Of a DNA stretch of 64,000 nt, positions 17,398 to 18,385 are shown piece by piece. Below the pieces are notes generated by a model. It did not search any database. It saw only the letters and a list, made by a program, of their open reading frames with translations, and was not told where the DNA came from. How positions within the stretch are numbered: the first letter of the stretch is position 1; each line of letters starts with the position of its first letter. This DNA is from a virus. The stretch is from IMG/VR virus record IMGVR_UViG_3300021168_000494, positions 3,304-67,303 of that record; one strand, given 5' to 3'. The translations under genes and the position numbers were made by a program.

Positions 17398-17871
17398 ATG
17401 TCGGAACACGAACATAACGAAAAATCCCGACTGACAAAGATCGAAGAGATTCTCGAGTGTCTGCATGAAGACGTGAAGCGGATGCTCCGATGGATCGCTC
17501 TAAAGAAGATCGACTTTATTCAAGTTGGAGGCAGTATGAATTTCTCAATCGTTCGAGGCGCAGCGGGAACTTTCACTGCAGTCTTGACGCCAGCCAATGG
17601 CACCCAGGCACCGAGTACTCTTCCTGCATGGGCCGCAGATGATACGACCATCGTTCTCAATCCGAGCGCTGACGGGCTGTCTTGTGAAGTCACGGCGCCG
17701 CTCGGTGGAACGGTTACGGCGTTCCATCTCAGTATCAAAGCGACGTCGTCCGACCCGAGTGTTGGAGTAAGCGGAGTGGTCAACGCGAATCACGCGATTA
17801 CGATCACCGAGCCGACTCCTCCACCGCCGACGCCGTTGCAGAGCATCGACTTCGTCCAGTCCGCTGGCTAA
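17398..17871 (+). CDS. Ig-like beta protein, possible head decoration; alternative start at 17536
   Basis: Thr/Ala/Val-rich beta pattern 'P.W..DD......PSADG.S..VT'; strong GGAGG SD at the internal ATG 17536. Confidence 0.6.
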   Translation: MSEHEHNEKSRLTKIEEILECLHEDVKRMLRWIALKKIDFIQVGGSMNFSIVRGAAGTFTAVLTPANGTQAPSTLPAWAADDTTIVLNPSADGLSCEVTAPLGGTVTAFHLSIKATSSDPSVGVSGVVNANHAITITEPTPPPPTPLQSIDFVQSAG

Positions 17872-17887: not shown

Positions 17888-17926
17888 AATCCCCGGGCGC
17901 GCACTTCCACGGTGCCCGGGGATTTT
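17888..17926 (+). terminator. Intrinsic terminator-like hairpin
   Basis: AATCCCCGGGCGC...GTGCCCGGGGATT followed by TT. Confidence 0.6.
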
Positions 17927-17933
17927 CCAGTTT

Positions 17934-18106
17934 GCTCCGGTAGCTCAGTGGTGCAGAGTCCGGTCACATGCGTCCCGCTTCGGCTGGCTGCAACGGCGAT
18001 CAGACTCCGCTAGAGCACCTCGTATTTAACGAGGGGGTCGTGGCGGGTCGCCACCGCGCGCAGGGTCGCAAGGCTCGGCGAGGTTCAAAACCCACCCGGA
18101 GCGCCA
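17934..18106 (+). ncRNA. tRNA-like RNA (UUU anticodon position, encoded CCA) with 58-nt D-loop and 39-nt T-stem insertions
   Basis: Acceptor GCTCCGG/CCGGAGC + G + CCA; D stem GCTC/GAGC; anticodon stem CCTCG/CGAGG with loop TATTTAA; variable loop GGGTC; T loop TTCAAAA with stem GTGGG/CCCAC. Removing both inserts gives 76 nt. Confidence 0.8.
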
Positions 18107-18110
18107 TTTC

Positions 18111-18152
18111 TCCGCTAATTTTATCAGCCCACGAACTGATAAAATTAGCGGA
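18111..18152. repeat. Perfect 17-bp AT-rich inverted repeat
   Basis: TCCGCTAATTTTATCAG-cccacgaa-CTGATAAAATTAGCGGA. Confidence 0.85.
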
Positions 18153-18168
18153 CGTTCCACGTGGAACG
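18153..18168. promoter_or_regulatory. parS: parS-like palindrome
   Basis: CGTTCCACGTGGAACG matches the chromosomal parS consensus GTTtCACGTGaAAC (GTTCCACGTGGAAC variant). Confidence 0.7.
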
Positions 18169-18189
18169 CTCCCTCAATTCAAAAAAACT

Positions 18190-18218
18190 TTGACAATAGG
18201 CAAGGGCGGGTGTACTTT
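18190..18218 (+). promoter_or_regulatory. Sigma70-like promoter for the capsid operon
   Basis: A-tract, TTGACA, 17-nt spacer, TACTTT. Confidence 0.7.
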
Positions 18219-18222
18219 CACT

Positions 18223-18385
18223 CTCAACAGAGCGCACCCTGCGAGCGGGATAAACTAGACGCCACTCTGCATTGTTCCAAAGCACATCGGGGGATCGACA
18301 AATCTGCGTGCTTGACTGCGCGTGGATCGCCAACGTGCTCGTGCGGGGAGACGGCCACTGTTGAGCCAATGCAGAGGTTCCCACT
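18223..18385 (+). promoter_or_regulatory. Structured 5' leader of the major capsid gene
   Basis: CTCAACAG(18223)/CTGTTGAG(18358) and CTCTGCATTG(18265)/CAATGCAGAG(18367) perfect pairings; the second covers the SD. Confidence 0.55.

What the first reader, a model, noticed from the sequence alone, without database searches (positions are those of the whole stretch)
17934..18106. tRNA scaffold carrying two structured insertions
Seen: every tRNA element is present in order, with an encoded CCA. A 58-nt hairpin (17953-18010, closing stem GCAGAGTC/GACTCCGC) sits in the D-loop. A 39-nt insert (about 18043-18081, with a GCAA-tetraloop hairpin) splits the T-stem. Excising both gives exactly 76 nt. The anticodon loop is UAUUUAA: UUU (Lys) but with A instead of the universal U33. 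GTGG can pair either with the T-stem CCAC or with the insert (GTGGCG/CGCCAC), giving two folds. Known: bacterial tRNA introns are large group I/II elements, short non-canonical introns are archaeal and need BHB motifs (I see no clean BHB here), and PrrC and PARIS AriB target tRNA-Lys(UUU). Inference: this is a novel spliced phage tRNA, a decoy for anticodon nucleases or synthetases, or a tRNA-stabilised ncRNA/virion RNA, given its place in the head module.
Basis: partly seen in the sequence, partly recalled or inferred. Interest (0 to 1): 0.85.

Follow-up and report, generated by a model that had tools for sequence, protein, structure and literature searches.

The report
tRNA-shaped phage RNA, two extra hairpins
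A soil phage carries a gene for an RNA that has every part of a transfer RNA, but with two large folded hairpins grafted near its corner and a spoiled anticodon loop, so it is probably a stable tRNA look-alike that does something other than decoding.

Summary
Window 17934-18106 (+) is a 173-nt tRNA cloverleaf with an encoded CCA. A 58-nt hairpin interrupts the D-loop and a 39-nt module interrupts the T arm. ARAGORN and Rfam miss the raw sequence. With both inserts removed in silico, ARAGORN calls a 76-nt tRNA-Lys(UUU) with A33.

One related phage record (L001) has the same 173-nt gene at the same place. The two copies differ at 36 of 172 aligned positions, yet 48 and 52 of the 53 proposed pairs are standard. 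Random placement of the same changes gives about 37, and none of 20000 trials reached 52. The tRNA core outside the anticodon arm is 55 of 59 identical. The anticodon loop (7 nt against 6 nt) and the discriminator differ.

So this is a selected, structured RNA and not a decaying pseudogene. It is very unlikely to decode. The reading as a spliced tRNA is weak: bacterial-type phage, no clean BHB, no EndA or RtcB, and the "mature" product would be defective.

My best reading is a tRNA-derived, tRNA-processed non-coding RNA acting as a mimic or chassis; the function is unknown. Only two full copies and one partial sighting exist, with no expression data.

The parts
17891..17926 (+). Hairpin plus short T run after the stop codon of the upstream 157-aa gene (ORF 17398-17871). 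It is a weak terminator-like element directly before the RNA gene and is absent from L001.
   Evidence: Read. Not called by the consensus scan. The alignment shows that L001 has only about 10 nt between the stop codon and the element.
17934..18106 (+). The whole 173-nt tRNA-shaped RNA gene with encoded CCA.
   Evidence: Covariance model R1 scores 201.1 bits here and 196.5 bits at L001 3607-3779.
17934..17952 (+). Acceptor 5' strand (17934-17940), U8 A9, D-stem 5' strand (17943-17946) and D-loop with A14, G15, G18 G19 (17947-17952).
   Evidence: ARAGORN drawing. 18 of 19 positions are identical in L001; only 17952 (T/C) differs.
17953..18010 (+). Insert 1: a 58-nt irregular hairpin in the D-loop at tRNA position 20/21. 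It has a lower helix of 13 pairs, a conserved internal loop (17966-17968 / 17993-17997), an upper helix of 10 pairs, and a UNCG-type tetraloop at 17979-17982 (UUCG here, UGCG in L001).
   Evidence: 41 of 58 positions are identical to L001. Three pairs changed on both sides are kept as standard pairs, and one G-U is replaced by A-C.
18011..18039 (+). A21 region, D-stem 3' strand (18013-18016), A26, anticodon stem (18018-18022 / 18030-18034), 7-nt loop UAUUUAA (18023-18029, A at position 33), and variable loop with G46 and C48 (18035-18039).
   Evidence: In L001 the stem is kept through three double changes or a one-base slip, and the loop is 6 nt (UAAUAA).
18040..18043 (+). T-stem 5' strand, first four bases (49-52). 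It can alternatively pair with 18051-18054 inside insert 2.
18044..18058 (+). Insert 2, 5' part: a 15-nt segment that is 14 of 15 identical in L001 and has no assured partner.
   Evidence: Three mutually exclusive pairings are possible and none shows covariation.
18059..18082 (+). Insert 2, 3' part: a 9-pair hairpin capped by a GCAA (GNRA) tetraloop at 18068-18071, plus two linker bases.
   Evidence: One pair changed on both sides, three changed on one side, and the loop is invariant.
18083..18106 (+). G53, T-loop TTCAAAA (18084-18090), T-stem 3' strand (18091-18095), acceptor 3' strand (18096-18102), discriminator G (18103; T in L001), CCA.
18112..18167 (+). A 16-pair AT-rich hairpin (18112-18151) and a 14-nt palindrome (18154-18167) behind the CCA. 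They are present only in the window copy, so they are not part of the conserved element.
   Evidence: (L001 has a gap here).
18190..18218 (+). Promoter-like TTGACA, 17 nt, TACTTT for the downstream gene. It marks the 3' limit of the upstream transcription unit that holds the RNA gene.
   Evidence: Read (conserved in L001; similar hexamers in other relatives). It falls below the threshold of the consensus scan.

Best explanation
This is a real, selected gene for a tRNA-derived structured RNA that does not decode.

Shown:
- The 173-nt sequence keeps a complete tRNA core: acceptor stem with encoded CCA, U8, A14, G15, G18 G19, A21, A26, G46, C48, G53-C61 and a T-loop.
- Two folded modules sit near the elbow, at tRNA positions 20/21 and 52-54. 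One is a 58-nt UNCG-capped hairpin. The other is a 39-nt module made of a nearly invariant 15-nt strand and a GCAA-capped 9-pair hairpin.
- Both modules and the anticodon stem are kept by compensatory change in a second phage.
- The anticodon loop and the discriminator are not kept.

Inferred:
- The gene has no promoter of its own. It lies just behind the upstream 157-aa gene of the structural-gene block, about 10 nt behind the stop codon in L001.
- It is therefore probably transcribed with that operon and cut out like a tRNA: RNase P at the 5' end and exonuclease trimming to the encoded CCA.
- The tRNA body would give it stability and an L-shape.
- The elbow modules and the abnormal loop would keep it out of translation.

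Most likely use: a tRNA mimic or tRNA chassis that binds a factor recognising tRNA shape, or that displays the two modules and the invariant strand to a partner. The factor could be a host tRNA-cleaving defence nuclease, or a processing or modification enzyme. That last step is conjecture.
For: Anatomy:
- The layout is read. ARAGORN calls a 76-nt tRNA once the inserts are removed.
- Model R1 aligns the scaffold to two plain tRNA genes in the same slot of relative L024, at 42.7 and 37.8 bits. The core is 59 of 76 and 58 of 76 identical to them, against 43 of 76 for an unrelated tRNA-Met of L029.

Selection on structure:
- Window and L001 differ at 36 of 172 aligned columns, 27 of them in paired columns.
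- Standard pairs are 48 of 53 (window) and 52 of 53 (L001).
- Placing the same number of changes at random gives mean 36.9, sd 2.6. 0 of 20000 trials reach 52 (the maximum was 47 there and 46 in the repeat).
- The reverse direction gives P = 0.00035.
- Eight pairs changed on both sides. Seven of them stay standard pairs and one goes from G-U to A-C.
- With partners slid by 1-3 columns, pairing falls from 93.2% to 29.5-42.0%.

Core more constrained than inserts:
- Core without the anticodon arm: 55 of 59 identical.
- Insert 1: 41 of 58.
- Insert 2: 32 of 39.
- Anticodon arm: 8 of 16.

Not decoding:
- The window has A33.
- L001 has a 6-nt loop, called 'tRNA-???'.
- The discriminator is G against T.

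Alternatives excluded:
- Not a repeat or mobile hairpin: the inserts match nothing else in the genome beyond 16 nt (a 16-nt stretch at 94% identity, or 13 nt exact).
- Not coding: differences by codon position are 11/8/9, with 3 synonymous against 16 non-synonymous codon changes.

Accessory gene in a variable slot:
- 1 of 35 related loci has it.
- Four complete relatives have no tRNA and no element, and a fifth has only two tRNA(CUA) genes.

The phage does carry counter-defence content: one Acb2/Tad1 hairpin-domain protein among 84 ORFs.
Against: - Only two full sequences exist. With n = 2 the column-shuffle control is weak: 91 of 500 shuffles reach the observed covariation score.
- My substitution null used a structure partly drawn from the same two sequences.
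- The window copy is the less perfect one, with 5 non-standard pairs. For the insert pairs alone, the test in the direction L001 to window gives P = 0.062.
- The window copy's MFE z-score is -1.69.
- The 2D energy model does not favour the split T stem in the window, so the L-shape of the T-arm region is assumed and not shown.
- There is no evidence that the RNA is made. No partner protein was found: the six proteins shared only by the two carrier phages have no family.
- The three double changes in the anticodon stem can also be read as a single one-base slip.
Confidence: 0.5

Rival explanations
1. It is an interrupted tRNA gene. Both inserts are short protein-spliced introns that are removed to give a 76-nt tRNA, or the excised hairpins are themselves the product.
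For: - Removing the inserts gives exactly 76 nt and a perfect cloverleaf.
- The two insertion points, 20/21 and 53/54, are both on the list of non-canonical intron positions known in archaeal tRNA genes (PMC4090602, passage seen).
- A relaxed half-motif (4-pair helix, 3-nt bulge, helix) can be drawn at insert 1 in both copies.
Against: - The spliced product would be defective: A33 in the window, and a 6-nt loop in L001.
- The discriminator differs.
- The gene content is bacterial in type: M15 peptidase, RecT, LuxR-type HTH, cold-shock domain. There is a TTGACA-type promoter and an encoded CCA.
- PF01974 (splicing endonuclease) matches 0 of 2 carrier phages, and PF01139 (RtcB) matches 0 of 2. 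No RNA ligase appears among the 25 listed of 31 Pfam families.
- Compensatory changes lie deep inside the inserts and both tetraloops are conserved, which is more than introns need.
- My brute-force BHB scan was unspecific and found no full BHB at either junction shared by both copies.
Confidence: 0.1
2. It is a decaying tRNA pseudogene that happened to pick up two hairpin insertions. The similarity between the two phages reflects recent common descent and not selection.
For: - The anticodon loop is abnormal and differs between copies.
- The window copy has 5 non-standard pairs in the insert helices and a weak z-score.
- Relatives do without the gene.
- Other relatives carry over-long, non-canonical tRNA-like sequences in the same slot (L010, L014).
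Against: - There are 36 differences, yet 52 of 53 pairs are standard in L001. 0 of 20000 random placements do as well.
- The core is 55 of 59 identical while the insert stems change by compensation.
- The UNCG and GNRA caps are kept.
- The 5-pair anticodon stem is kept despite changes on both strands.
Confidence: 0.12
3. It acts in cis. It is a tRNA-like punctuation mark that RNase P cuts to define or stabilise the 3' end of the upstream structural-gene mRNA, in the way mascRNA does for MALAT1 and t-elements do in plant mitochondria. The released RNA has no job of its own.
For: - It sits directly behind the upstream gene's stop codon with no promoter between, about 10 nt away in L001.
- It has a complete acceptor/T domain with CCA, which is what RNase P needs. 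That requirement is established knowledge, recalled.
Against: - A plain tRNA or a hairpin would do the same job.
- This reading does not explain why two elaborate modules with conserved caps and a nearly invariant 15-nt strand are maintained.
- Relatives with the same flanking genes have no such element.
Confidence: 0.13

Closest known systems
Ordinary phage-encoded tRNA genes; here the two tRNA(CUA) genes of relative L024 in the same slot
   Same: Same place (between the upstream structural genes and the promoter of the putative capsid gene) and same strand. The encoded CCA is shared. The core is 59 of 76 and 58 of 76 identical, and the element's own covariance model aligns to them.
   Different: Those genes are 75-76 nt with canonical 7-nt loops and U33. 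ARAGORN and Rfam call them at 61-67 bits. The element is 173 nt, has two inserts and a non-canonical loop, and is invisible to both programs.
Archaeal tRNA genes with multiple non-canonical introns (Thermoproteales and others)
   Same: Short intervening sequences lie at positions 20/21 and 53/54, both listed for archaea (PMC4090602, passages). Removal restores a cloverleaf.
   Different: Archaeal introns need a BHB or relaxed BHB and the EndA endonuclease, and they yield working tRNAs. Here there is no clean BHB and no EndA or RtcB in the phage. The phage is bacterial in type, and the 'mature' product would have a defective anticodon loop.
tRNA-mimic non-coding RNAs: bacterial and phage YrlA (Y RNA-like) and mammalian mascRNA (both recalled, not from a call)
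   Same: These are stable RNAs that copy the tRNA acceptor/T/D architecture, are handled by tRNA-processing enzymes, and do not decode.
   Different: YrlA closes the acceptor-like end with a loop and carries a Ro-binding stem. mascRNA is small and has no expansions. Neither has elbow-mounted hairpins. No Rfam family matched at E up to 10.
Engineered 'tRNA scaffold' for recombinant RNA expression (PMC3753655: search listing and start of abstract only; the original method is recalled)
   Same: A tRNA body is used as a chassis that gives processing and nuclease resistance to a grafted structured RNA.
   Different: The engineered graft replaces the anticodon arm. Here the anticodon arm is kept and the grafts sit in the D-loop and T arm, and the object is natural.
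Phage tRNAs that counter tRNA-cleaving defences such as PARIS AriB, retron effectors and OLD (PMC11464382, PMC12409363, PMC11555353, PMC12445682: listings and starts of abstracts only)
   Same: A phage-borne accessory tRNA-type gene, in a phage that carries other counter-defence content.
   Different: As I understand the abstracts, those are working tRNAs that replace cleaved host tRNAs. This RNA cannot plausibly decode. Its Lys-like UUU loop is not conserved in L001, so any role here would be as a decoy or inhibitor, which is untested.

Membership tests
Canonical tRNA (Rfam RF00005 / ARAGORN) | Detected as a 70-95-nt cloverleaf by the standard models | tested here: not met
   ARAGORN finds none in the window or genome. 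RF00005 gives no match at the gathering score, at E up to 10 on the region, or genome-wide. It is met only after both inserts are removed in silico.
Canonical tRNA (Rfam RF00005 / ARAGORN) | Conserved core and tertiary nucleotides (U8, A14, R15-Y48, G18 G19, A21, G53-C61, T54-A58) and a 7-pair acceptor stem | tested here: met
   Read. All of these nucleotides are identical in L001.
Canonical tRNA (Rfam RF00005 / ARAGORN) | 7-nt anticodon loop with U33 and a conserved anticodon; conserved discriminator | tested here: not met
   The window has A33 in a 7-nt loop. L001 has a 6-nt loop, called 'tRNA-???'. The discriminator is G against T.
Archaeal-type intron-containing tRNA | Bulge-helix-bulge (or hBH/HBh') motif at each exon-intron junction | tested here: inconclusive
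   The brute-force scan gives many unspecific motifs in this GC-rich RNA. Only a half-motif at insert 1 is shared by both copies, and neither junction has a full BHB.
Archaeal-type intron-containing tRNA | A splicing endonuclease and an RNA ligase are available | tested here: not met
   PF01974 and PF01139 each match 0 of 2 carrier phage genomes, and the controls rang. The host is unknown, so host enzymes could not be tested.
Archaeal-type intron-containing tRNA | Removal yields a functional tRNA | tested here: not met
   The products have A33 (window) or a 6-nt loop (L001).
Bacterial or phage tRNA with a group I or II intron | A self-splicing intron of hundreds of nucleotides with a ribozyme core, usually in the anticodon loop | tested here: not met
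   The inserts are 58 and 39 nt and lie in the D-loop and T arm. No intron family matches in Rfam.
tmRNA | A tRNA-like domain plus a tag reading frame and pseudoknots | tested here: not met
   ARAGORN's tmRNA search finds none, and Rfam finds none.
tRNA-mimic ncRNA (functional class, not a sequence family) | A tRNA-like fold under selection without decoding capacity | tested here: met
   Structure is kept across 36 differences, while the decoding features are not kept.
tRNA-mimic ncRNA (functional class, not a sequence family) | A stable transcript processed by RNase P or CCA enzymes, and a defined binding partner | not testable with these tools
   RNA-run contigs gave no cover of the element (not usable as evidence either way). 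No partner was found by gene co-occurrence.

The most novel reading that the evidence does not exclude
This is a new class of phage RNA: an L-shaped tRNA chassis with two modules mounted at the elbow. The modules may dock on each other through the GNRA loop. The RNA would work as an inhibitor or decoy of host factors that recognise tRNA by shape, such as tRNA-cleaving defence nucleases or RNase P. Alternatively it would present the invariant 15-nt strand to a target. A bolder variant is that it is the first bacterial-virus tRNA gene with two protein-spliced introns at archaeal-type positions.
Probability: 0.2. Interest if true: 0.85.

Novelty: new variant of a known kind. Interest (0 to 1): 0.62.

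Why it matters
Phage tRNA genes are now seen as weapons against tRNA-cleaving bacterial immunity. tRNA mimicry by non-coding RNAs is known from only a few cases. A natural RNA that keeps the whole tRNA core under tight constraint, gives up decoding, and carries two maintained structured grafts at the elbow fits none of those cases. The elbow is the surface read by RNase P, the ribosome and T-boxes.

If the RNA is expressed, it would offer three things. It would be a natural counterpart of the engineered tRNA scaffold. It would be a probe for what recognises tRNA shape in its host. It would also show that standard tRNA finders miss such genes: ARAGORN and Rfam both fail here.

The weakness is the evidence base of two full sequences, with no expression data.

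Tried and rejected
Search for more homologues
- Five pattern scans of IMG/VR found only the record that holds L001:
  - 2 stretches, one of them a chance hit in coding DNA.
  - 69 stretches. I read 19 of them, and all were tandem or ordinary tRNAs or unrelated.
  - 6 stretches.
  - 46 stretches.
- nhmmer over 394 loci and a two-sequence HMM over all 546 loci held match only five loci, all copies of one sequence (L001, L037, L209, L484, L485).
- CM search of 50 pattern-hit loci gave four weak matches (E 0.012-0.66). One is a tRNA-Ser, one looked like coding sequence when read, and two were judged unconvincing from their alignments.
- BLAST against the GenBank phage collection found nothing.
- A protein-pattern search with the 157-aa neighbour found nothing.
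- The genome search with model R1 on five records found nothing. It also missed the L024 tRNAs that cmsearch finds, so that answer is void.

Expression
- One soil metatranscriptome run (X2) has contigs on both flanking genes and none between 17804 and 18540. Contigs cannot show absence, so I draw nothing from this.

Third homologue
- A DNA run (X3) has a 1604-nt contig that aligns to 17929-18060 with 26 other letters and 2 gaps. It then has 160 unlike letters in place of 18060-18207.
- I could not obtain its sequence, so it counts only as a sighting.

Host
- The putative capsid protein has one distant match (32% identity) in 1 of 401 Acidobacteriota genomes sampled, and none in 5 other genomes. 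This is too weak to name a host.

Capsid identity
- There is no Pfam, PHROG or PDB-sequence hit and no PF17236 hit.
- The AlphaFold model was poor (pLDDT 35.9), so I made no fold search.
- The Atlas feature search gives a lead only.

Partner search
- Six ORFs shared only by the two carrier phages have no family.

Stop-codon recoding in L024's phage
- Only 2 in-frame TAGs appeared in tblastn alignments, both near protein ends. This is not evidence of recoding.

Rejected readings
- Protein-coding ORF 17968-18258.
- Mobile or repeated hairpins.
- tmRNA, group I or II intron, or any Rfam family. The four sub-threshold Rfam matches are chance-level (E 1.4-9).

Literature
- Five searches turned up no description of a phage tRNA-like gene with D-loop and T-arm expansions.
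- PMC10690425 (passages) reports thousands of candidate structured RNAs from IMG/VR, some of them tRNA-like. Its Supplementary Table 1 could list this element, but supplements are closed and I did not see it.
Full report
WHAT IS THERE

Window 17934-18106 (+ strand) reads, in order, as a complete tRNA:
- a 7-pair acceptor stem;
- U8 A9;
- a 4-pair D stem and a D-loop with A14, G15 and G18 G19;
- A26;
- a 5-pair anticodon stem and a 7-nt loop;
- a 5-nt variable loop ending in C48;
- a T arm with G53-C61 and a TTCAAAA loop;
- a discriminator G and an encoded CCA.

Two blocks interrupt this.
- A 58-nt hairpin at 17953-18010 sits in the D-loop, at tRNA position 20/21.
- A 39-nt block at 18044-18082 sits between T-stem bases 52 and 53. 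The register is ambiguous by one base because of a run of G. In the relative L001 the insert lies exactly at 53/54.

ARAGORN finds no tRNA in the window or in the whole genome. Rfam gives no tRNA match at the gathering score or at E up to 10. When a script removes the two blocks, the remainder is 76 nt and ARAGORN draws a perfect tRNA-Lys(ttt) with A at position 33.

CONTEXT

The window is most of a 67,303-base virus record that is rated complete. It is a tailed phage with bacterial-type content:
- large terminase, RecT and a DNA methylase;
- M15 peptidase, a LuxR-type HTH, a cold-shock domain, GIY-YIG endonucleases and an Acb2/Tad1 hairpin-domain protein. These were seen among 84 ORFs scanned, with 31 families found and 25 listed.

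The element lies between a 157-aa ORF (17398-17871) and a TTGACA-17-TACTTT promoter-like site at 18190-18218. That site precedes a conserved leader and a 445-aa protein.
- This protein is the most conserved of the clade.
- By language-model features it resembles clusters of which 10-17% carry the SU10 capsid family.
- It has no Pfam, PHROG or PDB-sequence match, and its AlphaFold model was poor. 'Capsid' is therefore a lead and not a finding.

No promoter-like site lies in front of the element in either copy. In L001 the element starts about 10 nt after the upstream stop codon. Co-transcription with the upstream genes is inferred from this.

RELATIVES

A search with the 445-aa protein gave 35 related loci in IMG/VR, at 53-96% identity.
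- Only 1 of the 35 (L001, 96%) has the element.
- The slot is variable. Relatives hold small ORFs or homing-endonuclease-like genes there.
- L024 has two ordinary tRNA(CUA) genes in the slot, and L029/L030 have a tRNA-Met.
- L010 and L014 have over-long, non-canonical tRNA-like sequences on the other strand.
- Four complete relatives have no tRNA and no element anywhere. A fifth has only the two tRNA(CUA) genes.
- The element's covariance model aligns to those two tRNAs with both inserts deleted, at 42.7 and 37.8 bits.
- The in-silico core is 59 of 76 and 58 of 76 identical to them.

The scaffold thus descends from an ordinary phage tRNA gene of this slot.

A third, more diverged copy was sighted in a soil DNA run (X3). 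It aligns to 17929-18060 with 26 other letters and 2 gaps, after which the sequence is unlike the window. I could not retrieve it. All other searches found nothing (see Tried and rejected).

IS THE STRUCTURE SELECTED?

Both copies are 173 nt long. With one gap each they differ at 36 of 172 columns, and 27 of those lie in paired columns.

I proposed 53 pairs: the cloverleaf, two helices in insert 1, and one hairpin in insert 2.
- 48 are standard pairs in the window and 52 in L001.
- Eight pairs changed on both sides. Seven stay standard pairs, and the eighth goes from G-U to A-C.
- Placing the same number and kind of changes at random on the window copy gives a mean of 36.9 standard pairs (sd 2.6). 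0 of 20000 trials reached 52; the maximum was 47 and 46 in the repeat.
- In the other direction, P = 0.00035.

The caps are kept. Insert 1 has UUCG against UGCG, both of the UNCG type. Insert 2 has GCAA in both copies. The core is far more conserved than the inserts:
- core without the anticodon arm: 55 of 59 identical;
- insert 1: 41 of 58;
- insert 2: 32 of 39;
- anticodon arm: 8 of 16.

There are limits, and they are real.
- With two sequences, the tool's column-shuffle control is not significant: 91 of 500 shuffles reach the observed score. The slid-partner control is clear, at 93.2% paired against 29.5-42.0%.
- The structure was partly derived from these same sequences.
- For the insert pairs alone, the direction L001 to window gives P = 0.062.
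- The window copy has 5 non-standard pairs and an MFE z-score of only -1.69, against -4.78 for L001.
- The three double changes in the anticodon stem could be a single one-base slip.

WHAT IT IS NOT

- It is not protein-coding. An ORF (17968-18258) overlaps the element and is partly open in L001. However, differences fall 11/8/9 on the three codon positions, and 16 of 19 differing codons change the residue.
- It is not a mobile or repeated hairpin. The inserts match nothing else in the genome beyond 16 nt, that is, a 16-nt stretch at 94% identity or 13 nt exact.
- It is not a working decoder. The window has A33. L001 has a 6-nt loop, which ARAGORN calls 'tRNA-???' with a 2-nt anticodon. The discriminator is G in one copy and T in the other. 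The two main identity elements vary while the body is nearly frozen.
- It is unlikely to be an intron-containing tRNA.
  - For that reading: the positions 20/21 and 53/54 are both known archaeal intron sites (PMC4090602, passages).
  - Against it: the phage is bacterial in type. No shared full BHB exists at either junction, and my scan was unspecific.
  - Neither carrier phage has a match to the splicing-endonuclease or RtcB families.
  - The product would be defective, and selection reaches deep into the inserts.

HOW IT MOST LIKELY WORKS

Shown: an intact, tightly conserved tRNA core, two maintained structured modules placed next to the elbow nucleotides (G18 G19 and the T-loop), and the loss of decoding features.

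Inferred:
- The RNA is made as part of the upstream structural-gene transcript.
- RNase P and 3' trimming to the CCA release it.
- It is stable because it is a tRNA in shape.
- It stays off the ribosome because of bulky elbow grafts and a bad anticodon loop.
- It acts through its shape or its grafts. It may work as a mimic that occupies a tRNA-recognising factor. It may instead be a chassis that presents the two modules and the nearly invariant 15-nt strand (18044-18058).

Which factor is involved is unknown. A nuclease or enzyme that reads the tRNA body would fit better. This last step is conjecture.

The fold of the T-arm region is the least secure part. GTGG (18040-18043) can pair with the T-stem 3' strand or with two different places in insert 2. 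The 2D model prefers the alternative in the window (0.42-0.48) but not in L001, where the T stem scores 0.24-0.25. No covariation decides between them.

COMPARISON AND NOVELTY

The element works like the known tRNA mimics (YrlA, mascRNA; both recalled) and like the engineered tRNA scaffold. It is a member of none of these. No Rfam family matches, and five literature searches found no description of D-loop and T-arm expansions in a phage tRNA-like gene. The supplementary catalogue of PMC10690425 could not be checked.

I rate it a new variant of a known kind, namely tRNA-derived or tRNA-mimic RNA. It is interesting because selection for structure is demonstrable. It is held back by n = 2, by the absence of expression evidence, and by an unknown function.

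Noticed in passing
window about 18255-18385; the same place in L001-L033: A conserved, structured 5' leader lies before the 445-aa (putative capsid) gene. In 16 relatives RNAalifold predicts 18 pairs, 11 of which have changes on both sides that keep the pair. An outer pairing also appears to enclose the ribosome-binding site (read, not tested). No Rfam family matches. It is likely a cis-regulatory RNA of the clade.
   Followed up: partly
L024 3515-3590 and 3655-3729: Two ordinary tRNA genes with the amber-reading anticodon CUA sit in the same slot of a relative. Only 2 in-frame TAGs appeared in alignments of that phage's proteins, both near protein ends. Whether the phage reads TAG as sense remains open.
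   Followed up: partly
L023 4001-5973 and L024 4001-5994: The putative capsid gene of two relatives is about 640-660 nt longer than in the others. The homology resumes at residue 101-104. This suggests an intron or another insertion in the gene.
   Followed up: no
L014 3601-3741 (-) and L010 2636-2742 (-): Other over-long tRNA-like sequences occupy the same slot on the opposite strand. L014 (141 nt) matches Rfam tRNA at 37.6 bits, with the anticodon region replaced by a long hairpin (z-score -3.1). L010 is 107 nt with CCA. Neither recurs in any of the 546 loci held.
   Followed up: partly
window 18112-18167: A perfect 16-pair AT-rich hairpin and a 14-nt palindrome lie directly behind the CCA. 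They are absent from L001 and may be a recent insertion or a terminator.
   Followed up: no
L004, L006, L011, L014, L033 intergenic regions upstream of the putative capsid gene: An 8-nt palindromic motif (GTATATAC, with a one-base-longer variant in L014) recurs in front of small accessory ORFs in several relatives (read). It may be a phage-specific promoter or a homing site.
   Followed up: no
among the 84 ORFs of the window (exact ORF not identified): One protein matches the Acb2/Tad1 hairpin domain at E 2.4e-11. This family is annotated as sponges for defence signalling nucleotides.
   Followed up: no
L407, L410, L418, L423, L425, L429, L443, L444 (IMG/VR): In unrelated large phage contigs, a tRNA-like gene next to a normal tRNA carries two consecutive T-arm-like hairpins. 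I saw this while screening pattern hits.
   Followed up: no
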